A stretch of DNA of 62,788 nt, the filler included, from Dugesia japonica (Eukaryota), in the NCBI GenBank assembly GCA_001938525.1. It is 5 parts of 5 records of this genome, joined end to end, with 100 filler letters (N's around TTAATTAATTAA, not from the genome) between each part and the next. Parts side by side here need not be neighbours in the genome. Positions count along the whole stretch, not along the records: positions 1 to 8,546 come from MQRL01295952.1; 4 more parts are not named here. One strand, 5' to 3'. The notes beneath the pieces were generated by a model, which worked only from the letters and a program-made list of their open reading frames with translations, was not told the DNA's origin and ran no database searches. A program made the position numbers and the translations under genes. Of the stretch, positions 1 to 59,075 are shown one piece after another; position 1 is the first letter of the stretch, and each line of letters opens with the position of its first letter.

Positions 1-598
1 AATCTAAAATATACTTTTTCATTTTTTTGAAAAATTTATCGAACTCTGTCTATCAATTTTTAAATATTTAAAAAAATTTTTAAAATTTCTCAATTTAGAT
101 TAATTATTTCGATTTGTAAATTATTGAATAATAAATTCTAAAAATCGTAAATAATTAAATTAACAATTAAAATAGATGAATACNAATTAATAATTTATTA
201 TTTATACATAAAAAACTTTATAATTTCTGAATTAGTTAATTGTTACAGATCAACTAATGAAAATATTGTTTTAACTGAAATGCAAAAACAATATTTATTG
301 AAACCCACATAAATTTGAGAAATTGAACTGTCTAAATTTGCGGAGGTTGATCAAATTAAAAATCAATAGTTTTTTTTTACTAATACTTCTGAAAAGTATC
401 AAAAGCTATTTTGAATATTAATTTCATATAATATATATATATGAAGAATTTACAACTTTAAAGCGGATTTTTCAATACAGAATATAGACTTTAAAAAGTA
501 ATCCAGAAAAAGATATTCTACATCCACAAAATAAAACTTATTCAGAATAGTTTGTTTTATTTAAAAGTCGTCTTACTTTTTGAAAAAAGTAGTATTTC

Positions 599-834
599 AT
601 TTAAAATAAAAGCTTCGATCAAAAAATTTTTTTTTGTTTTTTGAGATTGATTCGATATTTCGACTGTCTTTTACTTTTTAAAGTAAAAGTCAATTCCTGA
701 CGAAGACAGTCGAAATATCGAATCAATCTCAAAAAACAAAAAAAAATTTTTGATCGAAGCTTTTATTTTAAATGAATTCTTAAAAACGATAAATGGTTAC
801 GTCCAACAATTATTCTCGCAATAATTGCAATTGT
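599..834 (+). mobile_element. Fold-back, hammerhead-bearing short element (Penelope-like pLTR-type), best-preserved copy
   Basis: Near-perfect ~75-bp inverted arms (596-670 / 703-776), then a ~58-nt tail ending TGTAA. Flanked by a 14-bp direct repeat AAAAGTAGTATTTC (585-598 and 835-848). About ten relatives in the window. Confidence 0.85.
693..723 (+). ncRNA. Minimal type I hammerhead ribozyme motif
   Basis: ATTC-CTGACGA-A-GAC-A-GTC-GAAA-TATC-GAAT. Stem I is AUUC/GAAU, core CUGANGA and GAAA are intact, stem III is the self-complementary AUAU, and the predicted cleavage triplet is AUC (after 719). The stem II loop is shortened in this copy. Activity is not shown. Confidence 0.7.
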
Positions 835-984
835 AAAAGTAGTATTTCTCATTATTCAAAGCCTAACAATAATTTATTAGTTTGTTCGGAAAATAATTTC
901 GTTTTTTTNNNNNNNNNNNNNNNNNNNNNNNNNNNNNNNNNNNNNNNNNNNNNNNNNNNNNNNNNNNNNNNNNNNNNNNNNNNN

Positions 985-2909: not shown

Positions 2910-3440
2910 AACTTACCCTTGTGAGGAAATAATTAACCAAATCGTTCAAAACCGACCAAAACAGACTAATGTGAGAAAAATTCGATCTGGTATATAATTG
3001 ATCAAATTGCCCAAAATTGACCCAAATTAACCATTCCTGAGTAAATAATTTACCAAATCGCCCAAAAATGAACCAAATCGAAGAATAATTTGACCGAATC
3101 GCCCAAAAAATTACCCAAATTAATGATTCCCGAGGTAAAATTTGACCAAATTAAGCTAAAACCGACTAAGTTTGCCCAGATTCGACCTCATCGATGAAAA
3201 ATTTGACCAATCTTACCTAAACCGAGCAAATAATTTACCAAATTGTTCAAAACATACTCAAATTGACTAATCCCGAGGAAAATATCAGCCAAATCACCCA
3301 AAAATGAGCCCAATCAATTATTCCCGAGGAAATAATGGACCAAATTCATCTGAACCGTATAAAAAAATTGACCTAATTCAACCTTGCCGAGGAAATTGTC
3401 AACCAAATTCATCTAAATCAATTGACCTCACCAAATAAAT
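2910..3440. repeat. Degenerate tandem satellite (~50-60 bp unit built from ~11-bp subunits)
   Basis: Recurring cccgaggaaataatttgaccaaatcgcccaaaa-like units. Confidence 0.75.
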
Positions 3441-3461
3441 TCCTAACTAAATACACGTGAA

Positions 3462-3570
3462 AAATATTACTGCTTAAAAAGCCTAAAAAATATTGCCGCT
3501 TAAAAGCCTGAAAAAATTCTACTGCTTAAAAAGCCTAAAAAATNNNNNNGCTTAAAAAGCCTAAAAAATT
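3462..3570. repeat. ~26-bp tandem repeat, four copies
   Basis: Repeated actgcttaaaaagcctaaaaaa(t). Confidence 0.85.
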
Positions 3571-4209
3571 TCTCAACTAAAAATCAATAAATAAACAAAA
3601 AAATTTAATTAATGAATTAAAAATAAATACAGAAAGAAATAAATAAATTGTATTCAAATTAATAATCAATAAACAAATTTAATTAATTAAAATAATTAAT
3701 TATACTACTTACAATGAATAATTTGTAAGTAGCTAAATAACTTACCAAAAGACACTTACAAAATTCACACATAAGAGATCTTGGAGTTACTCATCTCTTG
3801 ATAAAAACTAACGCCCATACTCGGTGAGAAAGGCGTTTTTTCCCGCAATCCAATTGGATGATACTAAGAATTTGTTCTAAGATTTTTCAGTACGAATTTA
3901 CTATTATTTCGATAAAGAAGCATTTTTATTTAGTAGTTCTCTCTAAAAACTAATTTCTTTCTTGAAGTGAATCATGGTCTGAAATAGAAAACAGTTTTCG
4001 TATTTAACTTTAACTTTCTGAAACTTATAAATATAAACAAAACTATATAAAACTATTTTTGTTTTATAAGGTAGCAAAAATAAGTCAAATTTGCTTTGTT
4101 CCCGCATCTATTTTGATAACTTTATCAAATACATATGAAACTGTATAAATTCATTTATATTGTGAATAATGATGAATTGTTTATTCAAATTAAAAATGAG
4201 TTATAATAA

Positions 4210-4434
4210 ATTTACAATTACAATTATTGCGAGAATAATTGTTGGATGTAACCATTGATCGTTTTACAGATTTCATTCAAATAAAAGATTCGATTAATTT
4301 TTTTTGTTATTGATAATATTTCGAATTTTTGATTTAGACTTCGTCAGGAATTGACTTTTTCCTGACGAAGACAAAGTCAAAAATTCGAAATATTGTCAAT
4401 AACAAAAAAAATTTGATTGAAGCTTTTATTTTAA
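4210..4434 (-). mobile_element. Fold-back hammerhead element, copy 2
   Basis: Tail in reverse orientation (ttacaattacaattattgcgagaataattgttgg), then inverted arms with tcgtcaggaa/ttcctgacga. Direct repeat GAGTTATAATAA at 4198-4209 and 4441-4452. Confidence 0.85.
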
Positions 4435-5017
4435 TAAAAAGAGTTATAATAATGTCAAATTATACTGATATTGTATTTGTATTGATATTGTCTGTTAAAA
4501 TGTATAATGTTATTCATAAGTGCAGTAAATATTAAACAAATGAATAACAACCGAAATATTTAGAACGCGAAAATTAATAAAATATTTGATGAAATGTAGC
4601 ACGAAAGCTAAATTTGGCAATTTTAATAGTAAATTTTACAATGTATTATTGTTACAAGGAAATCCCATACATCTTTGAACTGTCCGTTAAAGAATTAAAC
4701 TCAATCGTCAATAACTTGTTTCAATATTATTATCATAAAAAGAAAATCTGTAACTAATCTGTTATAAAAATTTTTAACAGAATTTCTATCATAGATTCAT
4801 ATTTTTATTTTCGATGATTATAAAATTATAACGAAAATAATTTTTAAGATTTGTTGCTAATAATAGATGTTTCTAGAAAATTAATCTACTAGAAAATTAT
4901 TTGATTAGTAACAATTTGATTTTAATTGGTTCAGTATTAACCAATGATATTCCAGATTCATTTTTATGAAAATTTGTAAATTTTTTAAACTTAAAAGAAA
5001 CAAAAAAATTTTCAGTA

Positions 5018-5442: not shown

Positions 5443-5514
5443 GTAAGAATTCAATTAAATAAATTAAAAATCAATTAAATTTTATTCAAAAAAAAATTAA
5501 ATGAAAATCTTTAG

Positions 5515-5858
5515 GAACATTTTCAATAATGAGTTTGCTTTCAAGTGTTCCAGTTATTAGAGAAGCAAAATCATTAAATAATAATTTTATTAATCTCACT
5601 ACAAATAGTTCTAATTCTGAATTGTTGACTGCTTATGAGTTATCGAAATTGGAAATAACAATTGCGACTGCACTTCTCGCTGGATTGATTCAGCTAATAA
5701 TGGGTTTATGCCAACTCGGATGTATTATGAATTATGTAAATGATACTTTGATTGGAGGATTCACAACTGCTACTGCATTGCACATAATTTTCTCACAATT
5801 TGAATCTATGTTGGGTTATTCTATAAAAAGATATTCTGGCGTTGGTGAACTACCTTAT
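5515..5858 (+). CDS. SLC26/SulP anion transporter, exon 3
   Basis: Acceptor tttag|GA. Reads GTFSIMSLL...ATALLAGLIQLIMGLCQLG...IGGFTTATALHIIFSQ...LPY. Donor TAT|gtaagt. Confidence 0.92.
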
Positions 5859-8044
5859 GTAAGTGTTGATTTTACATTTCTAATTTTTTTTGAAAATAAC
5901 TTGATTTAGATTTATGAAATTTTTTTCTGATTTTTTTTTACAAAGTTTGCTCTTGTGTGTGCGTTGTCCAAGGTGATAATCAAGGAGCGAGGCCAAATTC
6001 AAAATATAGATAATTGTATAACCATAATAAATAATTTTATACTTACAAAAACATTCAACTAAACATCGTTCGAGGTCAACCACATTTTAGAGAGTATAAT
6101 CAAAAATTAGAATTTTGAATCTTCTTTTTAATGGCAGCCGTTTATATGAACAATTAGAAGCATTTAAATAAATTGTTTAAAATATCGCATTATATATTTA
6201 GATTAAATTGTTTGGAAAAATGGGCTGGTCAATGAAAGATGCCAAAAAAATCGTGAAGTTTTGGTTACAAAATAAGGTTAAATAGCTTATTAAGATTCAT
6301 CTTTAGTACTGACTACATTAGGTGAAACAACAGCATTCCACCATACTGTCATATTATACAAAATTTTATTCAAGAATTTGTGGAACATTACATGTTAAGC
6401 ATCTACATTTTCTACCATCCTATTGTAACTCATACGTGGAGCCTATACACACGCAATCCTTATTACTCCTTGTGAATCCATCTGCCATCGCCAATCTATT
6501 TTAGTAGTATCGAGTAGCCACCTGAAAACATTTTACCTCACCAAGTATCGGCAGTAATACAATCACTACTTAGCTGAAAGAGTTTAGAGTTACCGGCTTT
6601 GCGTTCCACCTTGGCTGTCGCTTCACCTCAGTAACCGGTACAATTATTACTCACTTTCTACTAGCTTAACAGCCAGGATGCGGCGGTGAAAATCCATGAA
6701 AATACACTTTTATTTATACTTTTGTAAGATAACATAACTTTATATTTATTAATAAAATCATCTCCATTTCAATCTCATTTCCCATGAAATTTATTTCTCT
6801 CTATTTGCATTTCCATTCGCCATAATTATAATCCGTTATTCCTGTTCGTTCACGAGAAAATTCGGAGAATCTGTCTTTATACCAATTTACAATCTAATTT
6901 ATTTTTAACGCTAATTTTAATCAAAAATACTACTAATTTGGTCAATTGTTATCTGAAATTTTCTGAGTAATTTTTGTGCATGAAATGAATTTATTTTTAA
7001 TGTATATTTGATGTGTTTAATGGTGAAATTTAGTACTTTATACATATTGACTCAATGTTTTTTGAAGATTTTATTCAGTTCCTGGTTATTTTTGTAGAAA
7101 TTATTGCCACATCTTCTCCAACATCTGCTCTCTAAAGTGCGATACATATATACCTATGGAAACCGTTCTCTTTATTATCTCAGAGAGTTCTTTGGACAAT
7201 ATCATTTCCGTATTGTGATTATTTTTTATATTGCTTTTCATATATCGTATATTGATCGATTCTCTCGATCTCACTTATACTGTTAAAAGTACTCTTTCGC
7301 ATCTAATAAGTGACTTTAGTTTATTAGTAAAGTATATTTGTATTCACAAGAGTAGGGTGAAAGTAGGTATACATTAGTGTTAAAAGGCTAAATATTAATG
7401 TACAAAACTAACTAACAATAAGCATATTAGATTTGGAGCATAATCTTCGATCAAACTGGATCATATAATTTATCCCTATAGTATTTATTTATTCAATTCA
7501 AGAGCATCTTTGACCATATAATCTCTCTAATTTACATATACTATCTTATCTAAATCATATAATATTCATATAATATAATATAATATTCTTTTAATATTCT
7601 TATAATAATATTCATATAATATTCTTATATAAATTCTTTGGATTTCTCAGAGACATTCATTCGGAAATGATTCAATCTATTTAGCTTCTTTTTGTTAATT
7701 TTTGTTTTGTGAAATTTCCCACCGTATTTAAAGTTTCTCTCTAGTACGCCAACAGTCATTTTATAGACTAGTTTACATCGTTTGATCTTTCGAGATCTTT
7801 TATTGACTGAATTTATCACTCCATATCATATCACTTCTTCTTCATATTGGCCAAAATTTTTGAATTCCAATATTTTTCCTTATTACATGTATTATTTAAA
7901 TTCAAATTTCTGTTTTTATAAATTTTAAAAATTTTATTTATATTTCNNNNNNNNNNNNNNNNNNNNNNNNNNNNNNNNNNNNNNNNNNNNNNNNNNNNNN
8001 NNNNNNNNNNNNNNNNNNNNNNNNNNNNNNNNNNNNNNNNNNNN

Positions 8045-10185: not shown

Positions 10186-10420
10186 ACGAGAATAATTATT
10201 GGGCGTAACCATTGATCGGTTTTTAGAATTCATTTAAAATAAAAGCTTCGATCAAAATTTTTTTTATTGTTTTTTTGAGATTGATTTGATATTTTGACTT
10301 AGTCTTCGTCAGGAATTGACTTATCAATTGAAAAAGTCAATTCCTGACGAAGACTAAGTCGATTCAATCTCAAAAAAAATAATAAAAAAAAAATTTAATC
10401 GAAGCTTTTATTTTAAATGA

Positions 10421-10421
<1 letters not shown>
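10186..10421 (-). mobile_element. Fold-back hammerhead element, copy 3 (tail truncated, abuts (ATT)n)
   Basis: Long inverted arms, both carrying gtcaattcctgacgaagactaagtc. Confidence 0.85.
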
Positions 10422-10467
<46 letters not shown>

Positions 10468-14616: not shown

Positions 14617-15386
14617 GTTCATTAGAATGAGCAATTTCAAGTAACTATATATATACTTTGCCAAACAAAGCACAAAATTGGGATAAAAAAAACAAAATAA
14701 AAAACAAATCTAATATTTTTTTTTAAAAAAAACATGAATTTTAATTCTTTAGTTTATTGATATAATAATTGGAAGAACTTTAACAGTAACCATGTTTTGT
14801 AATTCTCCATTTTAAAAAATCACCCATTTAAAATTATTTCTGAAAATAAATTTTACTCGATAAGGTTTTTTTTTAGTATTTTTCATATTTACAATTGAAG
14901 ATTTTAAAGAAAATCAAATTAATTCTATTTTAATTGGAAAATATGCTTCACTTTAATTTAAAAGGTGTCTTTGATGTTGTTTTGTCTTTAATGTAATCAA
15001 ACATTTCATTATTTGAAATATTTGTATTATTATGAAAATTTTTAATAAAAAATTTGAATGTTATTATTTGGAAGACTATTGATTTAGTTGAATTGAATGA
15101 CTTACTTTCAACTGATTCTAGTCATCCCTATATAACATGATTGCTCATCAAATTTATCCTAACTTAACACATTATGTTTCAGATAATTATTTTAACTATT
15201 GTTAATTTCTTATGGAAAACACAACTTTTCCCGTCAGGTAATATTTTTACTTTATTTACTTTCAATTGTAATATATTTAACATTTTATCTAAGTGGTGGG
15301 CAAACTTTTGCAAACCGCAGCACACGTAATTTTTTTCGTAACACCAATTTATGTTTTCGCAATTTAAAGCTGTACCAAAAACATTT

Positions 15387-16098
15387 CATTAAAATAAAGT
15401 AATAGCTTCAATCAAAAATAAAATTGTTGTTTTATAGATATTCAAATTTTCGATAATTGTCTTCTTCAGAAATATGATGAATTTTCGATTAAATTTAAAC
15501 GATTATAGAAAATTGTTACAAAATTGTTTATATTTTATCAAAATTTTATTGGCTTATTTAAATTATAAATTTTATTTTAAATTAAATCGAAATTTTTTTT
15601 AAATTAAATAGAAAAGTCTTTTAAATATTTAATTATTAGTTGGATTTTGTTATTTTTTTATATAACTTTTATAAATTTGAAATTTTTTAATTTTTTTCAA
15701 TTATAATTATCACAAATTAATATAATTTTATTCATTTAAATTTTTATTATTATTGAATGTTATTTTTATTTTTTAAAACTATTTATTTAAAATTATTATT
15801 ATTATCATGTTATTAAATTTTTTTATTAATACATGAANATTAACCCAAATTTTATTATTAATATTAATAAATTATTAAATTAAATTATTTCAATTATCAT
15901 TTCAAATTTTTTTTTTGATAATTTGTGTTTTTATCAATTTGTGTTTTCTACATATATATTTAATGTTTTATTCACGTTATAATTAAATATCTATAAAACA
16001 ACAATTTATTTTGATTGAAACTATTAATTTATTTTAATGATATCTGAAATGCGGTCAATCGTTAAGTCCAACAATTATTCTCACAATAATTGTAATTA
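15387..16098 (+). mobile_element. Fold-back hammerhead element, long-spacer copy
   Basis: Arms at ~15387-15473 and ~15986-16041, ~500 bp AT-rich spacer, family tail. 11-bp direct repeat CAAAAACATTT at 15376-15386 and 16099-16109. Confidence 0.75.
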
Positions 16099-19549: not shown

Positions 19550-20221
19550 CTGAGGGATAAAAGGCGCATTATTTGACTTGCTTCAACAAATAATTTGTCT
19601 GGAAGAAATATAAAGATACATCTCAATATTGGAGTGTATAAGAATACGATACTCAATTGTCAGTGGCAACTTGAAATATGCAAAAGAAATGGCTACTCCA
19701 AAATTACAAAATCGACATATTGAAGCTCGTCTTAATTTCGCAGAAACTCACCAAACTTGGGATGTACAATGTCAAAATGTAATATTTTCCGATGATAAGA
19801 AATTTAACCTAGATGGTCCAGATGGATTTGGCAGGATATTAGGAACAAAAATTAATATTGCTCCAAACATGTTCGATGTAGCAGATCTGTGATGGTTTGG
19901 GATGGATTTTCTTTTAATGGTACAGCGCTATTGGCGGTCATAAATGGGAGAATTAATGCAATAAAATAACAAGAAATATTATCAAATCATTTATTACCAT
20001 ATTGTGAAAGACTTACTGGCAAAGCATGGCTTTTTAACAAGATAATTCTCCTATGCATAAGGCAAAATCTACCCTGAAGTGGTTTCAAACAAAACAATAT
20101 CAAAGTTTTAGATTTTAGATATCAAAGTTTTAAACCTTCTGTTTTAGGTGTTTCTTGTAAGCATGCATAAAATATTAGGATATCGGGGGGAGCGGTTGCT
20201 TATTTTTGTGACCACATTGTA
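19550..20221 (+). mobile_element. Tc1/Tc3-like transposase relic
   Basis: [11 protein letters not shown]...[41 protein letters not shown]. Terminus ...gtgaccacattg-TA. Confidence 0.88.
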
Positions 20222-35560: not shown

Positions 35561-36414
35561 TGCCAAATTTCCAAACCAAACTTTCAAACCAAATTTCTAA
35601 ACTACTTTATTAGCGGGGGGAGGTGGTTCAGTGCTGACGTAACTATTTATTTCTTTACAATTTTTGAAAGGATGACAAAACAGTTTCAATATTTTTTTTA
35701 TAAAGTTTCAGTTTATTAAAATGCATTTAACAGTTATACAAAAATTGGGGCCCAATAGATCCCCAGAGATTTTCACATTGCAATATGTTTACGATTGAAA
35801 TATTGTGAAAATTTTGTAACAACTATTCATCTCTTGTCAGTAAAGATTGCAAATAAATTATAAATAATTGTATTTATTTTTCTACTGAGGTCCAAAAGAC
35901 CAAAATCGTTTGTATCTATCATAGACAAATAAAGAAAAACATAGTGGCATCCATGAGAAAATGATATAAAAAAAGAAATAATCAATAATTAAAAAGAAAT
36001 GGAATATCATATTAATTGGTGGGGAAATCGTACGTAGACAATTTATTTTCAAAAGCAAAACCATTAGTTTCAGAAATCTTCTATTAAAAAAAATTTAAAG
36101 ATAAATTTTTAAAATAAAATAGCATAAATAGAATTATTTTTCTAATTCAAATTATTTTAATCCTCAATGATGATGAAAAACTTCTGATACTTTCAGGCAT
36201 AATGCTAACTATACAAATTCCTCAATAATTAAATAAATAAGTTACCAGATTAGAATTAATTGGAATGAATTAGTTGGATTAACTTTAATAGTAGACAATA
36301 AAATCATATTTTTCTATGAACAAACATTAGATGCAAAAATATTGATTTTTATTGAACTTGGCGTATATGGTTCAAAATTTGGATAATTCTTAATGAAACT
36401 AGTCTTATTTATTG

Positions 36415-38514
36415 AACTACAACTTGTGTTCCTTATAACGATGAAGAAACAACATTAAATTGCGAATTATTCAGAGAAATATATAACCAATCTTGGCAAA
36501 TACAATTGATCCGGTAAAAGTGAAACAATCAATTATTATTTAAAGCTTAATAATTGTCAACGAAGAATTCTGGATCACAGTGATACTGTGAAAGATCTTC
36601 ACAAAATTGAAATTATGGCTTCATGTTATTTAACTACTTAACATACTTGTCCGTGTCTTACTAGCAAATTTGTACGCTTGCAGTTGGCATTTATTTTGAT
36701 ACGTTTAGTAGGGATTTGTGTGAAAATTCAAAGTAGTTAAAGCACGACCAAACAGCTTTAATAGTTTATTTACAATTTAAAAACCAAAACGTTATTTAGT
36801 AATACTAAAAGATATTTGATAAAAGCAATAAATGAAACATAACCGAATGAATAATTTATTGTAGAATAGTGTAATTATCATTTATCACTTCATCAGATCT
36901 TCTTCCAAATCTTGATCGACAGTGAAATAACCATTTCTTCCAAATTGGAATCGAGAATAAACTTNGGATTTATTTATAACAAAAGATTTGGATGATCCTC
37001 GTGGGTTTTTTAAAAACATATCGTGTTCTATATAACCATGAATAAATATTAATATAAAACTAATCTTGACATATACAAATGATGAGATAAATACTAATAA
37101 ATTATGGTTTAACGTATCTGCCGTGTGTTACTAGCAAATTTGCACGCTCGCAGCTGGCACTTGTTTGATAACGTAAAGTGGCGATTTGTGTGAAAATTCA
37201 AAGTAGTTAGAGCACGACAAAACAGCTTTAGTAATTTATTTACAAAAAGAGGTTTGATAAAAGCAAAAGAAATCAATAAACGAAACATAACCAAGCGAAT
37301 AATTTATTGTAAAACATCGTAATCACAATTTATCACTTCATTGGATCTTACTTCAAATCAACAGTTCTGTTGAAAACAATTCTCTCATCTGTCAAGTCTT
37401 GATCGATAGTAAAATAACCATTTCTTTCAGTTTATAATCGAGCATAAACTTCTGGTTTATCGATAAAAGCTTTATTTATAACAAAAGAGTTGCATGATGC
37501 TCGCGGAATTTATAAAGAATGTTAAACATATTATTTTACTATTCAGCCTAATTACAAATTGCGTTCCTCATAACGATAAAGAAACAACAGTAAATAGGGA
37601 ATTTTTTCAGAAAAATGTAAAGCTAATCTTGGTAAAAGTGATGCAATCAATTAATATTTAGAGCTTAAGAATTTTTAAACGAAAAATTCTTGATTGGAAT
37701 AACAATTTTTTTTTAAATTTTTAACAAATTGAAATTATGGCTTCATGTTATTTAACCTCTTACAGTACCTGCCCGTGTCTTACTAGGAATTTTGAACGTG
37801 GTCAATTGGCATATGAGTAAACATTATATTTCCTAGCGATTTCTATAGAAAATTTTTCTATAAAAGATGTCGCAGTGTCGAATCTCTTGCAGCTGGCACT
37901 TGTTTGAATACGTAAAGTGGCGATTTGTGTGAAAATTCAAAGTAGTTAGAGCAAGACCAAACAGTTTAAANNNNNNNNNNNNNNNNNNNNNNNNNNNNNN
38001 NNNNNNNNNNNNNNNNNNNNNNNNNNNNNNNNNNNNNNNNNNNNNNNNNNNNNNNNNNNNNNNNNNNNNNNCATCAGATCTTCTTCCAAATCTTGATCGA
38101 CAGTGAAATAACCATTTCTTCCAAATTGGAATCGAGAATAAACTTCGGATTTATTTATAACAAAAGATTTGGATGATCCTCGTGGGTTTTTTANNNNNNN
38201 NNNNNNNNNNNNNNNNNNNNNNNNNNNNNNNNNNNNNNNNNNNNNNNNNNNNNNATACAAATGATGAGATAAATACTAATAAATTATGGTTTAACGTATC
38301 TGCCGTGTGTTACTAGCAAATTTGCACGCTCGCAGCTGGCACTTGTTTGATAACGTAAAGTGGCGATTTGTGTGAAAATTCAAAGTAGTTAGAGCACGAC
38401 AAAACAGCTTTAGTAATTTATTTACAAAAAGAGGTTTGATAAAAGCAAAAGAAATCAATAAACGAAACATAACCAAGCGAATAATTTATTGTAAAACATC
38501 GTAATCACAATTTA
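36415..38514 (-). pseudogene. Tandem array of decayed GlnRS 3'-end and downstream-region duplicates
   Basis: GlnRS C-terminal fragments at ~36885-37010, ~37333-37510 and 38072-38192 (e.g. [18 protein letters not shown]). Block 37073-37349 is identical to 38255-38531 (offset 1182). Confidence 0.88.
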
Positions 38515-40182
38515 TCACTTCATTGGATCTTCCTTCAAATCGACAGTTCTGTTGAAAACAATTCTCTCATCTGTCGAGTCTTGATCGACAGTGAAATAAC
38601 CATTTCTTTCAAACTGGAACCGCGTGTAAACCGCGGGTTTATCGATATATTTATCGATCATAGCTTCATTGACAACGAGAGAATCTTGGTTGATGCAGGC
38701 GAGATACCCTTTCGGGTGATCCTCGGGGAACTTGTCATTGAACAGTTGCGAGTAATTCCTCACCTCGCAGATCCTCGGATTCGCGACCCAATGAATGAAC
38801 GCTTTCGGTTTCTTGCACTCGTCCGCCCTGCAGCAAGTCGCGTTAATCGATATCGCATCACCGGTTCGCTCGTCGCGATCAACAGAGGTCACGCTGATCA
38901 CCAATCCGAGATATCGCAACCCGACGGTTTGATCGATAGTTAATCGTCGATAACCTTTTATCGGTTTCTCTGAGAAATCGTTTCGTTCGATGTAGATCAC
39001 GTTCGAAGTGGAAACTTTATGAGAACCGCGAGTTTCGTCGCCGGGGAAATCGAAAACTTCGATTTCCGATGCGATCGATTCGGGGAAATTCGTAATAACG
39101 ATTTTCAGAGGTTCCAAAACTGCCATCGTTCTCGGAGCTGAGAGATTGAGAGTGTGTCGAACACACGCTTCCAACATGGCGGGATCGATCACTGTTTGAG
39201 TTTGGGTGACTCCGATTTTCTCACAGAAATCAGAAATACTCTCGGGAGGGAAACCTCGACGACGTAACGCGGTGAGAGTAAACAATCTCGGATCGTCCCA
39301 ATTTCCAACAATGCCCTTCTCGACTAATTGTAGAATTTTCCTTTTTGACATGACAGTATACCAAATATTCAAGCGGCCGTATTCCCATTGAACTGGACAA
39401 TAAATATCCAACGCGTTACACAACCAATAATAAGCTGATCGACGAGACTGAAACTCCTTTGAACAGAGAGAATGAGAGATATTTTCAATAGAATCACAAA
39501 TACAATGAGTGAAATCGTAAGTGGGATAAATACACCAATCATCTCCGGTTCTGTGGTGAGGAAAAAATTTAATCCGATAAGCAACTGGATCAGGTTTACC
39601 ATCTTCCATTATCAATTTCATTCTTAATGTTGCTTTACCTTCTTCAATTTTACCATTTTTCATATCTTCAAATAACTTCAATGATTCTGATATTGGTCTA
39701 TCTCTCCATGGTGACAAAGGAGGATTATGACCTCTCATATCTTCTAATGGTTGATGACAAACATAAGCCTGATCAACAAGAATTAACTTTTTAGCATACT
39801 CGTATAACTTGTAAAAATTATCTGATGCATATGTAACTGCATATGGCTCAAAGCCTAACCATTCAACCATATCTTTAATAGCAAGAAAAAAACGTTCTTC
39901 TTCTTTCTCTGGATTCGTATCATCATAACGAAGGTAACAAACACCATTATTCTTTTTAGCATAACCGAAATTAAAATGTATGGCTTTTGCGTGACCAATA
40001 TGAAGAACACCATTTGGCTCAGGTGGAAATCTAGTTACAACTTTTCCTCCAGTTTCTTCAAGATGTTTTTTCAATAACGATTTCGTCAATGGTGTCACAA
40101 CATAACCATCAGTTTTGTAATTTTCTCCCGGCTTATGAAATTTGGCAGCATCGCCTACTAACGACTTTGCATTCTCACTCAT
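38515..40182 (-). CDS. QARS1: Glutaminyl-tRNA synthetase (glutamine--tRNA ligase): catalytic and anticodon-binding domains, uninterrupted 555-aa ORF
   Basis: [15 protein letters not shown] (HIGH motif), [27 protein letters not shown] (KMSKS equivalent), [18 protein letters not shown]. The [10 protein letters not shown] stretch is eukaryote-type. Confidence 0.97.
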
Positions 40183-40599: not shown

Positions 40600-41190
40600 T
40601 TATTACTTCATTTGAAAAAAATACAGCCATGTTGTGAAACATAAAAATGGGAGCTAATAAAGGTAAAAATGTTCAGGATTTCGACATATTTTGAAATTCA
40701 CATAAAAAGACGAATTAAACTTTGTGGAAAACGGTCATATTTGAAAATGTAAATTATGATGAAATGCGCTGTTAGTTTGTATATGAAAGAAAGAGAAGAA
40801 TGATATACAGTTTTGTCTAAGCTTTAGGAGGCTAATTTTCACTACAGAAAGACAGGCATTTCCTATGCCTAATATAGATGAGATGTTAGATGCATTAAAT
40901 GGAAATATATATTTAAGCTTGAACAATTTGGGCAATTCATACAATCAAGTAGAACTAAAATAGGACTCACAAGAAAATCAACCTTTTCGACAAAATGTGG
41001 GCAATATTGTTTCACACTACTGCCTTTTTGGAAAGCAGATACTTTTTTGGAAATTATGTGGAAAATAGTAAATAATATGTATTATGGTAAAGTATATTTC
41101 GATAATATTCTCATTTTCTCCAAAGACAAAGATCATGAATAAACTTGCAAGAATGAGGTAATAGCACAAATAATCGATACAAGATTGAGA
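40600..41190 (+). mobile_element. Ty3/gypsy RT relic
   Basis: FRRLIFTTERQAFPMPNIDEMLDALNGNIY...YNQVELK. Same family as 45676-45864. Confidence 0.85.
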
Positions 41191-44080: not shown

Positions 44081-44175
44081 TTACAATTGCAATTATTGCG
44101 AGAATAATTTTTGAACATAACTATTGGTCGTTTTATAGAATTCATTTAATATAAAAGCTTTGATCAAAATTTTGA
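44081..44175 (-). mobile_element. Hammerhead-element family, tail plus partial arm only
   Basis: ttacaattgcaattattgcgagaataatt...aaaagctttgatcaaaatttt. Confidence 0.8.
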
Positions 44176-47100
44176 AGTCTGTAATTCCATCCACAAATCT
44201 GATGGAATATCATTCATAAGTTTGGATTCAAAAATTCGGCCGCAATCTGCTCTTATTATCCTCGGGCAACCCCACTTCAATATTCACTGATTCATAATCG
44301 CTCCTTGTACCATTACTTCGTCTTGCCGAGACAGTGTTATAAAAACTATGTATTTGGTATATTGATCTATCATACCCAATATATATTTATTCCTTCATGA
44401 TGTTTCTCTCGACGGTCCACATATATCTATCTACAGGGTTTCCATTGGATGACCTGCTTCTGTTTTCACTACCTCTTCCTTTGTCACGTCCTTCCGAATA
44501 TTTGTTCTCTGACAATGTTCGCAACTTTGAATCACTTCTTTGATCTTGTCTCCCCATTTAACCTTTGGCCATTGTCATTTAATGTAATCTGTTGACTTTT
44601 CTACCACAGCGTGACACAACGGTTTATGTATCCTTGAAACTTCCTTATTACATCATTCTGAATTTCTTTCTATGTCTTCCTTAATTTTCAGCGGAGCTAC
44701 AGTTTGTAAAATTCTTGTCTTAATCTTCCCTTTTGCTGCGCTTTCATGATAAATCTGACACTGAGTACAACTATCACATTCATATTGTGATAACATATCT
44801 GCATTACTGTTCAATTCTCCTTTTCTATCAAGTAACTCTATGTCCAAGCTGCTCAAATAGTTCACCCACGTCTGAAATTGTGGCTTTACTGGTTTTTTTG
44901 TTCCTAACATGAACGTGATGGCTTTATAGTCCGTTCTTAGTCTAAATCGCTTCCCATAAAATAATGTTTGAATAAATTACAAAAATAATATACTGCCAGC
45001 AACTCCTTTCCTGTGGTACAATAACTTTTCTCCAGTCTGGTCATTTGCATTCAATCCATACATAATAACTCTTTCAATACCCATATCGCCAGTCTGATAT
45101 AAAACAGCTTCAATTCTATCACAACTAGAATCTGTATCCAGTGTAAATTTATTGGTCAAGTCAGGAAATACTATTATTGGTGCCGACATTAACGCAGCTT
45201 TCAATTATTGAAAAATTACTTCCAATTCTTCATTCCAAATTAAATTCGTATTACCCGCACCGCTGCATAACTTTCTAGATATAGCCGCATAATCTATAAT
45301 AAATTTACGATAATATTTACGAATCCCGAAAACACCTCAAATTTACTTCACATAATTTGATCTACCAAACTCTTTAATAGCTTCGATTTTTGCCGGATCC
45401 ATTCTTATACCATTCGCGCTCACAATATGTCCCAGAAATTTAATTTTTTGTTTTAGAAATTCACACTTCTCAGGATTAACTCTTAACCCCGCATCCATTA
45501 TTCGTATCAATACTTCCTGTACTACAATGTAATAACTCGTCTCATCCTTTGAAAAATCTAAGATATCGTCAAGGTGTACCATTGCTCCCTTCAGATTATT
45601 TATCACTTTCCCTATCATCTCCTGGAATGTACCAGGCGCTGCTGCTATTCTAAATGGTATCCTGGTAAAACAGTATTATCCGTGTTTTGTCGAAAAAGCG
45701 GTTTTCTCTTGAGAATCCTTTTCTAGTTTTACCTGGTAATATGCATTACTCAAATAAATCAAGCTAAAATATATATTCCTGTGTAACGCGTTCAAAATAT
45801 CATCTATATTTGGCATAGGAAATACTTGTCTTTCAGTTATCGCATTTAATCTCCTAAAATCCAAACAGTCTAAAATCCTTTTTTTCTTTCTTTGAGTTAC
45901 ATACTAACAGCGCATTTCAAGCTGAATTATACTTCCAAATAATTTCATTCTCCACCAGGTTTCAAATCGTCTCTTCAACATGATTTTCTAGGTGTTATGG
46001 AATTCTTTAGGGTTTCACTTTGATTGGCTCTTCATTTGTCAAAATTCTATGCTTAGCAAAATGAGTACAAGACACATCCCATTTTGACGCCATAAAAACA
46101 TTTACTCTCCTCTTGCAAATCGCTTGTAATTTACTTCCATCTACAATACCTGAATAGTCGATAGGCTGTATAGTCAAGTTTTGTGGGACCCTAATTTCCT
46201 CCTTTCTATATCTACTAATATATACGAATTTATCACATATATATTTATATATAATTTATTATTGCAATTGATATGCAAGTTTTTTATTTAAATTGAAATT
46301 TGGATTGTCCAAAAATGGTCTCGAATCGATCGGCTGGCATTAAGCATTATGTTTTCCGGTTGGCTAATGATAAAAATTATGATAAAATTGTTAAAAAAAT
46401 GATGAAAATATCTAAAAAACAGTACTGTGAAAAGTGATAACAAATGATGCAAAGTGATAAAAATGATGATAAAATGGTGATAAAATTATAAAAACAAAAT
46501 GATAAAAATACAGTAAAAATTGATGAAAAATAATGAAAAAATATGAAAAGTAATTTAAATAATTAAAAGTAATTAAAATTCGTTTTTTCACTCTTTCCCA
46601 TCTATCTACTTCTGCCGCTTCCCTACCCAATCTTGTCTCAATGTTTTCTATAAATTCTCTTTTGCTAATTTCTTCATTTGCTTTACTTTCTCTCTTAAGT
46701 TGAAACCAAAAAATGTGTTGAAAATTTATTCCTCCAATAACATATGGGTATACACTTTCCGCTACTATAAATTAAACTTCTGCTCTTTTCTCTCCCAGCT
46801 GAACTTCAAATCGTATCTTCCCTTTAGTATTTAAGCCACTACTATTTGCACAATGTAACTTTAACCCAGTAGGTTCTACTTACACTTCAGGCCATTTCTC
46901 TAAGCATGACTCGTTAATCACATTAATACAAGCTCCCGTATCCAAACGACATTCCATTACAACTCCAACAATAATTATTGTTATACTAGGTCTGCCCTGC
47001 AACTTATTTCTATCTGTTAACCTTCTGACAAGACTCCCACCCACTCCTCAACATTATCCACATGAAACGTCTTTTTCTTCAGAAAACTATATATTTTCTT

Positions 47101-47640
47101 ATAGATTCTCTCTCTATTTTCCCATTTCTCTACTCCACGAAGACCTTCCTTGATTAAATTTTCTAATAAATGCCTCCAACCACTTCCTCCCTTGGCGGAG
47201 CCCTCTAATTTAGGTACATTATCTCTGATCTATGTTCGCTTATCTCATCTTCTCGTCGATCTTCTTCTTCTTGTGTTTCTACTGCATTAAAATAAACATA
47301 CCCATTTCTTTGTTCCTTTTTACAATTTTATTTATCTTCCATTAAGTTTCTTTCTTTATAATCTTGGCCCCCTGATGCTCTGTGACTGGACCTTCTACAT
47401 TGAAAATATCTCTTTTTCTTACACTCTCTTTTTATGTGTCCCATTTTTCCGCAACCAAAACATCTTTCATTGTTCTCTTTGTGAGCAATCTGTACTTAGG
47501 TGACCTCGTCATTTGCATGTTCAACATTCTCTATCCTCACATTTTAAGCACTGTGTTTACTGTACTTACTACGATCGAGTAGCTACGAATAATGTTAATT
47601 TGCTCTCTTGTTCCTAACTTGTTCCTATTCCTTGACTCTT
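44176..47640 (-). mobile_element. Decayed Ty3/gypsy retrotransposon (gag-PR-RT-RH-IN order) with an AT-rich insert at ~46200-46590
   Basis: PR: ECRLDTGACINVI. RT: DFRRLN...KTAFSTK and VHLDDIL. RH: FTLDTDSS, NADMLS. IN: LCHA...C..C and DICGP. Many stops and frameshifts. Confidence 0.92.
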
Positions 47641-47690: not shown

Positions 47691-47951
47691 ATAACAATTA
47701 TTTCGAGAATAATTATTGAACTTAACGATTGATCATATTTGAGATTTTATTAAATAAAGCTTCGATCAAAATGTTGTTTTATTTGTTTTCATTTCTTTTG
47801 TAGTAGTTATTCAAATTTTCGAATATTGTCTTTAGAAATTCCTGAAAGAAAAATATAAAAATAAAATAAAAAAGATAAAATCTAGAAAAAAATTATAAAA
47901 AAGAAATAAAAATAAACAAAACAAAATTTTGATCGAAGCTATTATTTATGA
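47691..47951 (-). mobile_element. Fold-back hammerhead element, diverged copy
   Basis: Tail plus arms aagcttcgatcaaaa / ttttgatcgaagct. Direct repeat AAT(A/T)ATTTTTATCT at 47677-47690 and 47952-47965. Confidence 0.78.
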
Positions 47952-48429
47952 AATTATTTTTATCTTGTCATGTTTAATTCAACATGCAAATCGACTCAGT
48001 GATCTAAATGACAACAAATATTCCAATTTTAGGAAATTCGTAATTTCAAATTCTAAATGAAAATTGCAAATTCTTATTGTACAAATCTAATTAAAAAATA
48101 TCTATTTAATTAATTTAAAAAATTTTTTAAATCAATCGAAAAGATAATTTCACTAAATTAAAAAAATTCAATTAAAAACAAAAATCTTTTTTTTGATATT
48201 TTAAACTTTGCTTAAATATATTTTATTGTTTATTTATATGTTTATATAAATAAAGAAATTAACTCTGATTTAACAATATGAGTTAGAATCAGGAATATTT
48301 CGACTGAATTCAGATTAATTCACAAATATCTCAGTAATCCCGTCATAAGTATTGTTCAAAACACCTCGAAATTAATTATTTTTCTTGTTACATTGTTTTT
48401 AATAATGTGGGATTGAAATTAGTGATTTT

Positions 48430-48616: not shown

Positions 48617-48775
48617 AGACAAAGTTGAAGACAAAGTCGAAATACCAAATCAATCTTAAAAAAAACAATAATAAAAAAACTTTTGATCGTAGCTTTTATT
48701 TTAAATGAAATCTAAAAAACGAACAATGGTTATGTCCAACAATTATTCTCGTAATAATTGTAATTGTAATTGTAA
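48617..48775 (+). mobile_element. Hammerhead-element family, single-arm copy inside (TAAATA)n
   Basis: gaagacaaagtcgaaata...gatcgtagcttttattttaaatgaa plus tail. The hexamer repeat continues on both sides. Confidence 0.8.
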
Positions 48776-53900: not shown

Positions 53901-55995
53901 GTTCATAATAAAATTAAGTTTCCTTGACATATTTATATTTGTAGTTGAACGATTGTAATTTTATTAATTAATCATAATTGGAAATTTATACAATTACATA
54001 ATTAAATGAAATTTGAAAAGTAGATTAATCATTATTCACATCCAAAGATTTTTCTTAAAACCACGTTGTAAAAACCAATAATCACTAACTAAAATTACAA
54101 TTAATTATTTATAAATTTTCAAACTGTAACACATGTTTTTGAATTTAAATTTAAATTTAGTACTTTTACACTGGTAGCATAGTTTTTTAATAATAAAAAT
54201 ACTTTATTACTGCAGGCAAAATTTTATAATTTAATATGTATGTACAAGTTCAAGCATCAAATTTATAATTTTTGGATATTTTATTTTTTTATTTCTGTCC
54301 AAATATGAGGTTGATGTTCTTATAAATNATCATTTAAACAAAATATTTTAAACAGCATTTTCGTGAAACTGGTCGAAAACACAAAATTTTACAATATTTT
54401 TTTACTGGTTAAAATAGAAAATTATTATTTAAAAAAGATTTAAAAAAATGCTTTGAACAGCTTTTAAAAACTTCCAGCTCACCTCTTCAGAACATTACTA
54501 TTGATTTAATATTTTAATAATTTTCGTGGGAAAAGCCGTCATCGGGAAAATGAATTGAGTAAAATGGTCGGCAACCAATTTTTACAATTTCTAAAGTGAA
54601 AGAGCGTAGTATATAATTGTTACCGATATTAATTCAAACTATAATTTAAAATGAAATAAAAGCTTAATGAAATATATCTTCAGCAGTATTAGTAGAATTT
54701 ATTATTGGACAAAATTTGAATATCATATTGATAGTGAAAAGTAAAACACATTTTATTTACATTAACGTACTATTAATAATAACTATATAATAATACTATA
54801 TAATAAGTACTATATAAAAATAATAATAATTAATTATTACTAGAACTATTATAAATGAATCAACCATATAACTAGATACAACGAGAAAAAATAATTATTT
54901 TATAGGTTAATTAAAATGAATTTACAAAAGAGAAAATTCATTCACATTTGTTCTACGGAAAGTTTTTCATCTCACGATATCATTGAGACATTTTAATTAA
55001 TTGCATCAAAAATTTTAAAANTTTTTTGAATTTTATATAATTCAGTACCAAAATAAGAAAAAAACTTAAAGATTTTAAATCGAATATTAATTATATAAAA
55101 TTAATTAATTATAAATTTATTAATTATATAAAATTGTATCAAATTAAAAAATTTTATTAATATAATTCAAATAAAAAATTAGCGCAAAAATAAAAATTTG
55201 AAAAATAAAATCTAAAATAAAAAAAATTAATTAAAATCTAAAATAATTCGTACTAGGCACACTAAAAATACGAGCTAAATTTATTTAATTGTACATAAAA
55301 ATTGGAACCGTGTAAAAAAGAGTTGAGTGAAATTGGAATCATTATTATAATAAGTAATTCAAGAAAAATAAATACTTTTGTTCCATAGCATGTTTATCAT
55401 TTTGACGTAATCCTGTAAAACAAAATTTAATGTAACTAATACCTTTCTAAAAGGATCACTAATTCTAGCTTTATTACACCTAAAGTATTTAAATTGATAC
55501 AAAGTATTATTTTTCTTCGCTAGGCAGACAATTCAGATTTTAATGAAAGAAAATTTTATCACCGAGATTTATTAAGTTTACTTTATTCTTAACAAATGTA
55601 AACTATATATTCAAACCATTATAAAGATTGTTAGACAAACCATATTTTTATTAACACGAGGCTATTATTGTCAACCAGAATTTATTCAAATGAGCTTTTG
55701 AACGATAAAAACAGATTCAACCATCAATAAATCTCTTTATAGCATAAGATCTATGATACATATGAACTANNNNNNNNNNNNNNNNNNNNNNNNNNNNNNN
55801 NNNNNNNNNNNNNNNNNNNNNNNNNNNNNNNNNNNNNNNNNNNNNNNNNNNNNNNNNNNTAACAATTTTTCTCCACAGTAATTCAGTTTTGAATATCTTA
55901 TTTACTTCATTATCAAAGCATTTGAAAAACATATAATATATTTTGTACTATTTATTAAAATTTGAAAATATTGAATATCACAAACTTGTTACTAA

Positions 55996-56208
55996 AAATA
56001 AAAGCTTTGATCATTTTTTTTGTTTTTGATAGTATTTCGAATTTTTGCCTTCGTCAGGAAAAAATTCAATTCCTGACGAAGAAAAAGTCAAAAATTTGAA
56101 ATACTATAAAAAACTAAAAAAAATGATCGAAGCTTTTATTTTAATGAAATCTGAAAAACGATGAATGGTTACGTCCAACGATTATTCTCGCAATAATTGT
56201 AATTGTAA
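55996..56208 (+). mobile_element. Fold-back hammerhead element
   Basis: Arms cttcgtcaggaa / ttcctgacgaag and a complete family tail. Confidence 0.85.
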
Positions 56209-56292
56209 AAATAATTTCTAAACATCAGAAAAATATTTATCAATCATATTAATTAGCTATAAATTATTAAAATTTATTTTTACAATGAATTT

Positions 56293-56451
56293 AAAAGTAA
56301 TTCCTGAAGAAAACAAAGTCGAAAATTCATAATACTATCAAGAACTAAAAAATATAAACAATATTTTTATTGAAGCTTTTAATTTAATGAAATCTGAAAT
56401 ACGATCAATGGTCAAGTCCAACAAATATTCTCGTAATAATTGTAATTGTAA
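56293..56451 (+). mobile_element. Hammerhead-element family, single-arm copy
   Basis: attc-CTGAAGA-aaacaaagtc-GAAA-ATTC plus family tail. Confidence 0.8.
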
Positions 56452-57294: not shown

Positions 57295-57421
57295 TTTAAG
57301 ATATCCAGTCTGATCGATAAGAATATTTTCTGGTTTTAGATCTCTGTAAACTAATTCTAAATGATGTAAATATTCGAAGCCCAAAACCACTTGACTGGCA
57401 TAGAATCGTGCATGACTTTCA
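57295..57421 (-). CDS. PRKACA: cAMP-dependent protein kinase (PKA) catalytic subunit, internal 127-nt exon
   Basis: Boundaries ttcag|T and AAA|gtaatt. Translates (S)[42 protein letters not shown], the PKA-C catalytic loop. The symbol is family-level; the paralogue is not resolved. Confidence 0.9.
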
Positions 57422-58953
57422 CTGAATAAAAATAAATTTAAGAAAACTTTGTGAGAAAAATTAATCTAAACAAATATCAATATTTAGAGTAAATCAGATT
57501 AAAATACGGTCAATATATTCTAAATTTTAATAGGCTAAATTTGCCAATACAAATTCCATTTGTACTGTAATATTAGAAAAGTATATCAAAATGAAAATTA
57601 GAACAAGACAGAAAATACAGACACACATGTACTGCAAAAAAAGTTATAACGCTCTTTGATTCTGTCCAATCAATAAACAAGAGTTTCTCTTCTGATCCGG
57701 GACAGTGTTTTTGCATTAGTATTTTGGGATAGAAAATATTAACAGCAATAGACAAGCAGATTTTGGAATGGAAAAAAAGCTAAGATAATTATTTTAAATT
57801 TGCGTCCCTATAGTGAAAACAATCGATATTTTATTATAGAATGCCAAGTTAAAATTATTTTACACCAAATATTTTGATAAATGGAAACAAATTGAAAAAA
57901 TTTCTGACGAAAACTGATTAAAAATAATTGTTCGTTTAAAGGTTTTGATATTTTAGGAATTTTTACTTAATTTGTTGTTGCGATAATTTGCTGTTTAAAA
58001 ACAATTTTTAAATACATAAAAATAAAAAAATCCGAAAAAAAATTTTACAAACCAAAGAATTTGTAATTAATAAATTGTAGTTTATTAGTCCATAAAAATT
58101 ATAACTAATGTTATTTTATTACTTCAGGCAATCCGGGATGAATTTGATTAGTGTAAATAGATGCGGTAAATTGCAATTACTTTTTCTCAAAATATTGTAT
58201 AGATTTTTACTTTCAAATAATAATTTGATTGAATGCACACATACAATTAAAAGATTTATTACCAAAAGTAGTTTATTTATTTCTTTTTATTTTAATAATA
58301 GAAATTTAAATACTAATAATTTAAATTATAAGATATCATTTCATGATTTGTCTTAATTCGAGAACTAGTCTATTTGAAATAATATTTGCTACAGATAAAT
58401 AAATAATTTTTGTTTCACAGAAGTTTTGTAAAATGATAATTTAGAGTAAACTATAGGTATCTATCAATATTTATGTTTAATTTTCCAATATAATTTTCGA
58501 ATGTCTTAATTATAATCTGATATATTTCATCATAACTATTTCAAAATGGAAAATAATTCACATTATGTTGAAGTTCATCCATTGAATTGGTTAAATCAAT
58601 ATTATGCGTACAAGATAGAGACTTTAAAGAATTACAAACTTTATGTAACTACGTTAAAAATTAAAATAATAATAACAATTTTATATATATATATATATGT
58701 TAAAAAAATTTTTAAATTATAGCTTAATTAATAATTACATTGAAAGTATATTGAATATATTATATTATTGAAGTGCATTTCTCAAGTTATCTATTAAGGG
58801 AACATTTTAAATGAAAATCGCGCATACTCCAAAAATGTTCTAATTTATGAGTTATTTAATGAAAAATAAAAATTTTAGTTAATTATTTACTTTTTTAATC
58901 CTTAAAATTTAGCGTTTTATTCAGACCATTGTGAAATTTTTAAACTAATAAAA

Positions 58954-59075
58954 TTTGATTAAATTAAAAGCTTCGATCAAAATATTGTTTTTCTTTTTTT
59001 TATATTTTTAAAATTTTTTAGTTATTTGTATTATTTTGAATTTTTGACTGTCTTCATCAGGAATTGACTTTTTTC
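58954..59075 (-). mobile_element. Hammerhead-element family, isolated arm
   Basis: aaaagcttcgatcaaa...gactgtcttcatcaggaattgactttttt. On the minus strand this reads CTGATGA-A-GAC-A-GTC-AAAA-ATTC. Confidence 0.75.

What the first reader, a model, noticed from the sequence alone, without database searches (positions are those of the whole stretch)
585..848. Family of small fold-back retroelements carrying a minimal hammerhead ribozyme
Seen: about ten related elements (599, 4210, 10186, 15387, 44081, 47691, 48617, 55996, 56293, 58954). They share an arm containing ATTC-CTGANGA-A-GAC-loop-GTC-GAAA-NNTH-GAA(T). Most also have a one-sided ~60-nt tail with an 8-bp hairpin (CAATTATT-CTCGC-AATAATTG) ending TGTAA. 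Four copies have 11-14 bp direct repeats on their flanks. Established: this architecture (extra base after CUGANGA, stem III reduced to a self-complementary tetramer) is that of the minimal hammerheads of Penelope-like elements, which can cleave as dimers. Variable 10-15 bp TSDs indicate target-primed retrotransposition, not a DDE MITE. Inference: an abundant non-coding, ribozyme-bearing retroelement family that would easily be mislabelled as a palindromic MITE.
Basis: partly seen in the sequence, partly recalled or inferred. Interest (0 to 1): 0.82.

Follow-up and report, generated by a model that had tools for sequence, protein, structure and literature searches.

The report
Penelope retroelement fold-back insertion scars
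These short hairpin-shaped repeats are real and very abundant, but they are most likely the ordinary truncated insertions of a Penelope-like jumping gene, each carrying a decayed hammerhead-ribozyme motif that is predicted not to cut, so they are a new example of a known pattern.

Summary
The family is real: 16 arms in 10 insertions in this window, and 18,202 and 14,872 matching contigs in two DNA runs. A full copy is target-site duplication (TSD), short inverted arm, pivot just upstream of a minimal hammerhead motif, long arm, one-sided ~60-nt tail, TSD. Exact flanking repeats of 14, 12, 11, 10 and 9 bp are beyond chance. This is the published insertion unit of Penelope-like elements (PLEs): inverted truncated copy, one-sided tail, TSD, palindromic junction, minimal hammerhead. 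MITE and Helentron readings fail on the ends.

The ribozyme claim needs lowering. No arm passes the published descriptor. The copy at 693-723 has a whole core but a 1-nt loop II, and its own inverted arm is predicted to sequester it (30 kcal/mol). Five of 8 whole cores carry G12A. Head-to-head arms cannot form the dimer in cis. RNA reads come from both strands and run on into unrelated sequence. No parent RT/GIY-YIG gene was found (no genome held), so membership rests on anatomy, and a self-propagating non-coding family is not shown. Verdict: new member of a known kind.

The parts
585..598 (.). Left copy of 14-bp target-site duplication of copy E1
   Evidence: Exact repeat of 835-848
599..677 (-). 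Short inverted arm of E1; 99% identical to the long arm over 82 aligned bases, but a 16-nt deletion removes the CUGANGA half of the hammerhead
668..689 (.). Pivot: 10-bp palindrome at the head-to-head junction, centre 18 nt upstream of hammerhead C3
680..776 (+). Long arm of E1, the part shared with the short arm (inferred PLE pseudo-LTR end)
693..723 (+). Minimal type-I hammerhead motif: stem I 4 bp, CUGACGA, extra A, stem II 3 bp with 1-nt loop, GAAA, self-complementary AUAU, predicted cut after C719; only whole core with G12 and stem I in the window
   Evidence: activity untested; predicted sequestered by the short arm
777..834 (+). One-sided tail (about 60 nt) with an 8-bp hairpin at 807-827; an ATG-started frame of about 22 codons begins at 772 (two stops in this copy)
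   Evidence: sharp 3' end at 836-838 in about 1,000 contigs of run X16
835..848 (.). Right copy of 14-bp target-site duplication of E1
4210..4440 (-). Copy E4: two arms plus tail, 12-bp exact TSD (4198-4209 / 4441-4452); both cores G12A
10186..10424 (-). Copy E10: two arms, shortened tail, no TSD found, abuts a (TAT)n run; long arm G12A, short arm with a deletion after G12
15387..16098 (+). Copy E15-16: short arm 15387-15473, about 500 nt unrelated AT-rich spacer, long arm plus tail 15983-16098, 11-bp TSD; arms 89% complementary
44081..44173 (-). Copy E44: single arm end plus tail, no hammerhead part, no TSD
47691..47955 (-). Copy E47: two decayed arms plus decayed tail, 10-bp exact TSD
48617..48775 (+). 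Copy E48: long arm plus tail, left end next to an assembly gap, first half of core absent
55993..56209 (+). Copy E56a: two arms plus tail, no clear TSD; long-arm core G12A; same pivot as E4
56277..56448 (+). Copy E56b: long arm plus tail, 10-nt inverted piece of the tail end at its 5' side, 9-bp TSD; stems I and II broken
58953..59075 (-). Copy E59: lone arm without tail, core G12A, no TSD

Best explanation
The repeats are head-to-head arm pairs with a one-sided tail and 9-14 bp flanking direct repeats, and they are likely short insertion products of an endonuclease-bearing Penelope-like retrotransposon whose end repeat carries a minimal hammerhead that is predicted not to cleave in these copies. 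Inferred mechanism, by analogy with the lizard element PAc: the RT-GIY-YIG protein makes staggered nicks in AT-rich DNA and primes reverse transcription on both strands, at two internal sites of its RNA. The downstream site gives the long arm with its tail; the upstream site, about 60 nt earlier, gives the short inverted arm. Both copies stop within about 20 nt upstream of the hammerhead core, probably at the RNA 5' end or by snap-back there, and are joined head to head. Repair of the staggered nicks leaves the TSD. Shown: arms, pivot, tail, TSDs, motif, abundance, decay. Inferred: the parent, the priming sites, the joining step, the lack of cleavage.
For: TSDs of 14, 12, 11, 10, 9 bp in 5 of 7 loci tested, null P(>=10) 0.003. 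Sharp tail end with unlike flanks: 1,005 contigs in X16 and 924 in X17 leave the stretch at 836-838 with flank agreement 0.46-0.47. Motif fits the published PLE consensus CUGANGAH-G..C-GAAANNUH (PMC4209133 Fig. S3, S7), with the extra base and G10.1-C11.1 in 7 of 8 whole cores and a self-complementary stem-III tetramer in 8 of 8, in two versions. Inverted truncated copy plus one-sided tail is the standard PLE unit (PMC8557442 Fig. 2 passage). PMC3846280 describes 9-10 bp TSDs, junction palindromes, captured spacers, and end repeat plus tail holding the first 22 codons; here an ATG-started frame of about 22 codons spans the tail, stop-free in 6 of 9 copies. PAc extends both strands from two RT start sites that bound the tail, and its hammerhead is dispensable for insertion in vitro (PMC11167929). 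Pivot 3-18 nt upstream of C3 in 5 of 5 contiguous two-armed copies.
Against: No parent was found: no PLE RT or GIY-YIG among 176 short window frames scanned (194 passed my complexity filter of 292), none from two searches with the tail peptide (weak, 27 positions), none in metagenome or viral contigs, and no single continuation among the loose ends. The tail is about 60 nt against 30-40 published. Helix II is 3 bp, the descriptor's minimum. Zero arms pass the published descriptor; Rfam gave no hammerhead hit to E 5. Pair covariation is weak (26 and 16 of 500 shuffles reach it). Core positions are no more conserved than the rest of the arm. The common tail variants at 781, 782, 800, 818 are first or second codon positions, so coding constraint is not seen. 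E4 and E56a share the same pivot junction, which a copied fold-back master would also give. No empty site was seen.
Confidence: 0.8

Rival explanations
1. The short unit is itself a non-autonomous retroelement: a transcribed fold-back or solo end-repeat master is copied in trans by a PLE protein.
For: High abundance (18,202 and 14,872 contigs laid; 10 insertions in 60 kb). Narrow range of 5' ends. E4 and E56a share pivot and G12A. End repeats suffice for mobilisation in trans in Adineta (PMC3846280).
Against: An arm's own partner is its best match in 8 of 12 arms by score and 6 of 12 by identity, against about 1 in 14 by chance; short arms do not group with short arms. Pivots differ among E1, E10, E47 and E4/E56a. 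RNA reads lie on both strands (724 vs 881 at peak) and 83% run on into unlike sequence, with no pile of starts or ends in the part examined. Gene conversion inside a hairpin could mimic the first point.
Confidence: 0.12
2. Non-autonomous Helentron (HINE / DINE-1-like) element moved by rolling-circle transposition.
For: HINEs also have inverted repeats flush with one end and 38-60 bp from the other, and a 3' hairpin (PMC4067079).
Against: HINEs make no target-site duplication and have 12-15 bp inverted repeats; here TSDs are 9-14 bp and arms 60-95 nt reaching a central pivot, with a hammerhead motif that a Helentron does not explain.
Confidence: 0.03
3. Palindromic MITE of a cut-and-paste DNA transposon, with a chance hammerhead-like motif.
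For: Long inverted arms; some DDE superfamilies make 8-11 bp TSDs (recalled).
Against: The inverted repeat is not terminal: one end carries about 60 extra nt inside the TSD. TSD length varies 9-14 bp. A motif match arises in 2 of 200 shuffles of the window and CUGANGA is concentrated in the arms (p 6e-10, though the copies are related and not independent).
Confidence: 0.03

Closest known systems
Insertion unit of endonuclease-bearing Penelope-like elements (Craig et al. 2021, PMC8557442; Arkhipova et al. 2013, PMC3846280, Pen2a_Av)
   Same: Inverted 5'-truncated copy next to the direct copy, tail at one end only, 9-10 bp TSD, palindrome at the junction, captured spacer between repeats, tail covering the first codons of a frame.
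   Different: No ORF between the arms; tail about 60 nt rather than 30-40; whole unit 170-270 bp; parent not identified here.
Minimal type-I hammerheads of metazoan PLE pseudo-LTRs (Cervera and De la Pena 2014, PMC4209133)
   Same: CUGANGA plus extra base, G10.1-C11.1, GAAANNUH with self-complementary 15.2-16.2, short stem I; that paper also reports pairs 100-700 bp apart on opposite strands and thousands of solo motifs per genome.
   Different: Helix II is 3 bp (most published ones 4-8 bp; one listed example, C. briggsae, has 3); loop II is 1 nt in two copies; 5 of 8 whole cores have G12A.
PAc (Poseidon of Anolis carolinensis; Frangieh et al. 2024, PMC11167929)
   Same: Hammerhead 80-140 nt upstream of two inferred RT start sites that bound the tail; AT-rich targets; both strands extended.
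   Different: No sequence relationship shown; mechanism here is by analogy only.
Non-LTR retrozymes of animals (PMC7229834 search listing; bioRxiv 10.64898/2026.07.22.740005)
   Same: Short non-coding hammerhead-bearing repeats related to PLE end repeats.
   Different: Retrozymes are head-to-tail tandem units with a hammerhead in each; these are dispersed head-to-head pairs with TSDs.
HINE / DINE-1 non-autonomous Helentrons (PMC4067079)
   Same: Asymmetric ends, subterminal inverted repeat, 3' hairpin.
   Different: No TSD, short inverted repeats, no hammerhead.

Membership tests
Penelope-like element insertion | Parent ORF with telomerase-like RT and GIY-YIG endonuclease carrying this end repeat | tested here: inconclusive
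   Not in the window; weak peptide searches empty; no genome held
Penelope-like element insertion | Adjacent inverted 5'-truncated copy, head to head | tested here: met
   6 of 10 insertions have two arms
Penelope-like element insertion | Tail at one end only | tested here: met
   6 of 6 two-armed copies have it on one arm only (shortened in E10, decayed in E47); about 60 nt, longer than the published 30-40
Penelope-like element insertion | Variable-length TSD | tested here: met
   14, 12, 11, 10, 9 bp in 5 of 7 loci; null P(>=10) 0.003; empty sites not seen
Penelope-like element insertion | Start of the ORF inside end repeat plus tail | tested here: inconclusive
   ATG-started frame stop-free in 6 of 9 tails; no third-position bias of variants; no protein match
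Minimal PLE hammerhead | Core CUGANGA, extra base, G10.1-C11.1, GAAANNUH, stem I of 3 bp or more | tested here: met
   All present together in 1 of 16 arms (693-723); decayed in the rest
Minimal PLE hammerhead | Helix II of 3-7 bp with loop of 3-10 nt together with an intact core (published descriptor) | tested here: not met
   0 hits in the window; E1 has a 1-nt loop, and the arms with a 3-nt loop have G12A or other breaks
Minimal PLE hammerhead | Self-complementary 15.1-16.1 tetramer for dimer helix III | tested here: met
   8 of 8 whole cores, AAUU in 6 and AUAU in 2, probably one two-sided change
Minimal PLE hammerhead | Self-cleavage after H17 | not testable with these tools
   The read-laying tool skipped the ribozyme half of the stretch as repeat; folding predicts sequestration
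Non-LTR retrozyme | Head-to-tail tandem units each with a hammerhead | tested here: not met
   Copies are dispersed; the only same-strand neighbours (E56a, E56b) are separate insertions with broken cores
MITE (TIR transposon) | Inverted repeats at both termini and fixed-length TSD | tested here: not met
   Tail lies between arm and TSD; TSD length varies
HINE / Helentron | No target-site duplication; 12-15 bp subterminal repeats | tested here: not met

The most novel reading that the evidence does not exclude
A very high-copy PLE-derived short family is made from an RNA that starts just upstream of the hammerhead, and at least one source lineage (E4/E56a type) kept inserting after its ribozyme lost the catalytic base G12: a natural test showing that hammerhead cleavage is dispensable for PLE mobility in vivo, with tens of thousands of two-armed scars to map both RT start sites and the joining step.
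Probability: 0.25. Interest if true: 0.45.

Novelty: new member of a known kind. Interest (0 to 1): 0.2.

Why it matters
Mainly for annotation: an abundant repeat that automatic tools would call a MITE or miRNA hairpin (Rfam's best matches were sub-threshold miRNA precursors) is likely PLE debris. If the genome were at hand, the fixed pivot, the two end points and the G12A lineage would give a large natural data set on two open points of PLE biology: how the inverted copy forms and whether hammerhead cleavage is needed.

Tried and rejected
No whole genome is held, so no genome-wide search. Rfam: 12 matches to E 5, none a hammerhead, none at gathering score. Pattern scans of metagenome contigs and viral contigs: 0 hits. 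Pfam on 176 short frames plus 2 long ones: Gypsy-type and host domains only. Tail-peptide searches: 0 hits among 76 candidates and 0 in 1.84 billion representatives; both too weak to show absence. Read laying covered only the tail and the end of the arm; the ribozyme half was skipped, so neither the cut site nor genome-wide core conservation was examined. CpG decay as the cause of G12A: not supported (28 of 160 CpG vs 36 of 262 other C/G transitions, p 0.33; window CpG o/e 0.99). The A-U to U-A change at the outer stem I pair was not counted: it lies at the pivot and comes from the opposite arm. Invariance of C3-A9 in 8 of 8 cores is circular, since those 8 of 16 arms were chosen for having CUGANGA without a deletion. 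A dimer joined through both the palindromic helix II and helix III of E1 was considered and dropped as sterically implausible (own reasoning); cofolding two copies did not give the dimer hammerhead. A depth-ratio copy number (about 1e4 to 4e5) is only indicative: the tool states depth is no copy number. Host: an animal (GlnRS best named hits are brachiopod and mollusc proteins at 68-69%); a flatworm is my guess from the short GlnRS and low GC and is not established. Earlier-finding look-ups by sequence and by place gave nothing. I did not find a paper on this particular family; repeat databases were not searchable, so it may already be catalogued.

Full report
Setting. The window is 20-30% GC over most of its length with assembly gaps. 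It holds animal host genes (glutaminyl-tRNA synthetase, a sulfate-transporter exon, a kinase exon) and Gypsy-type remnants. No whole genome is held. The host clade beyond 'animal' is not established.

Observation. Blastn and a profile search find 16 arms that make 10 insertions. All ten listed loci are members. The arm at 15387 and an unlisted arm at 15983 are 89% complementary and share an 11-bp flanking repeat, so they are one 712-bp insertion with an unrelated spacer. Copy E1 reads: 14-bp repeat, short inverted arm 599-677, palindromic pivot, long arm 680-776, tail 777-834, 14-bp repeat. Its arms are 99% identical over 82 aligned bases; the short one has lost 16 nt holding CUGACGA. Junction-anchored direct repeats are 14, 12, 11, 10 and 9 bp in 5 of 7 loci tested and absent in E10 and E56a; in 600 random junction pairs 0.3% reach 10 bp and none 11. 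In 5 of 5 contiguous two-armed copies the pivot lies 3-18 nt upstream of hammerhead C3. Short arms end at the ATGAA that opens the tail; long arms end 59-65 nt after that ATG.

Abundance and expression. Laying four runs of the same organism on 680-905 placed 18,202 and 14,872 contigs of two DNA runs on the tail and arm end. Of these 1,005 and 924 leave the stretch at 836-838 into sequence with only 0.46-0.47 agreement, so the 3' end is sharp and the flanks differ. Both runs may be the source of the window and are not independent. No common continuation (a parent ORF) stood out among the 24 loose-end rows shown; 301 rows were not shown. In RNA, 1,751 of 13.6 million records of X22 and 49 of 10.5 million of X21 were laid, on both strands, 83% and 90% running on into unlike sequence, with no pile of starts or ends. 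This fits copies embedded in other transcripts. The tool skipped the ribozyme half of the stretch as repeat, so the cut site was not examined.

The hammerhead. At 693-723 the sequence reads stem I (4 bp), C3-A9, extra A, G10.1, stem II, C11.1, G12-A15.1, U-A, U16.1, C17, stem I. This is the consensus of PLE minimal hammerheads in PMC4209133 (main text parts 1-2 of 4 and supplementary file 2 read; file 1 not available). Such a match arises in 2 of 200 shuffles of the window. The published descriptor, which needs a loop II of 3 nt or more, gives 0 hits: E1's loop is 1 nt. Of 16 arms, 10 hold CUGANGA and 8 hold a whole-length core. Among these 8, G12 is A in 5, H17 is U in 2, G1.1 is A in 3; the stem-III tetramer is self-complementary in all 8, in two versions. 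G12A slows cleavage by 500-fold to about a million-fold (PMC2553840, passages). CpG decay does not explain it; both arms of E4 carry it, as do the E56a arms as aligned, so it may be inherited from the source element. Pair support is modest: 82% of cells pair, against at most 48% for slid controls, but 26 of 500 shuffles reach that value. Core columns are not more conserved than the arm end or tail. In the E1 fold-back, positions 698-723 pair with the short arm or pivot, and forcing the hammerhead costs 30 kcal/mol, against 8 in a single arm. The two arms are antisense to each other, so they cannot supply the second sense copy that the dimer needs. The motif is best read as a real but decayed PLE hammerhead.

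What it is. The unit matches the PLE insertion drawn in PMC8557442 (passages): inverted 5'-truncated copy, 30-40 bp tail at one end, hammerhead in the end repeat. PMC3846280 (passages and section 6) adds 9-10 bp TSDs, junction palindromes, unrelated DNA captured between end repeats, and an end repeat plus tail that encodes the first 22 residues. Here an ATG-started frame of about 22 codons spans the tail and is stop-free in 6 of 9 copies, but common variants are not biased to third positions and two weak protein searches were empty, so this is a lead only. PMC11167929 (parts 1-2 of 4 and passages) gives the mechanism by analogy: both target strands are nicked and extended, reverse transcription starts at two internal sites that bound the tail, targets are AT-rich, and hammerhead mutants still insert. 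Priming at the two sites from opposite strands, with both copies ending near the RNA 5' end, would yield this structure; PMC3846280 instead proposes self-priming for the inverted junction, and my data do not separate the two. Arms of one insertion are often closest to each other (8 of 12 by score; 6 of 12 by identity), as expected if each pair is made afresh, though gene conversion would do the same and E4 and E56a share a pivot.

Rivals. MITE fails because the inverted repeat is not terminal and the TSD length varies. HINE/Helentron elements look similar but make no TSD (PMC4067079, passages). Tandem retrozymes (bioRxiv 10.64898/2026.07.22.740005, part 1 of 5; supplements closed) differ in arrangement. 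A self-propagating non-coding family is not excluded (about 0.12).

Membership and novelty. It works like a PLE insertion product with confidence about 0.8. Formal membership is open on the defining feature, the RT plus GIY-YIG parent, which could not be found with these tools. As a functional minimal hammerhead, no copy meets the published descriptor. Five earlier notes of this scan describe the same pattern in other genomes; they are unchecked leads and were seen after my reading was fixed. PMC8969392 was seen as passages only. Verdict: new member of a known kind, interest 0.2.

Noticed in passing
window 38515-40182 (-): Intronless 555-aa glutaminyl-tRNA synthetase frame lacking the N-terminal eukaryotic domain; best hit 81% (unnamed, 557 aa), named animal hits 64-69%. 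Held by many RNA runs.
   Followed up: partly
window 36400-38650: Several duplicated fragments of the synthetase's 3' end and downstream sequence; 37073-37372 is 99% identical to 38255-38554, other copies about 80%. Local tandem duplications or an assembly artefact.
   Followed up: no
window 44200-47500 (-): Broken Gypsy-type LTR retrotransposon: zinc knuckle, protease, RT, RNase H, integrase pieces; flanked by family copies E44 and E47.
   Followed up: no
window 59469-62788 (-): Further Gypsy-type RNase H and integrase fragments.
   Followed up: no
window 40717-40977: Inverted, about 75% similar copy of the RT region at 45704-45962: a second decayed retroelement piece.
   Followed up: no
window 19614-19889 (+): Tc1/mariner transposase HTH fragment (below the curated cut-off).
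   Followed up: no
window 5505-5909 (+) and 57283-57465 (-): Exons of a sulfate-permease (SLC26) family gene and of a protein kinase.
   Followed up: no
window 2994-3589: Degenerate tandem arrays with about 51- and 26-nt units.
   Followed up: no
window 15474-15982: The spacer of copy E15-16 is about 90% AT and has its own short inverted repeat (about 15478-15497 with 15576-15596); captured host DNA or a nested insertion.
   Followed up: partly
window 15058-15138: Imperfect hairpin with a sub-threshold match to the mir-7 model (32 bits, gathering 51.8), not part of this family; its 5' arm resembles the model's conserved letters and may be a real microRNA gene.
   Followed up: no
whole window: CpG observed/expected 0.99: no sign of germline CpG methylation.
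   Followed up: partly
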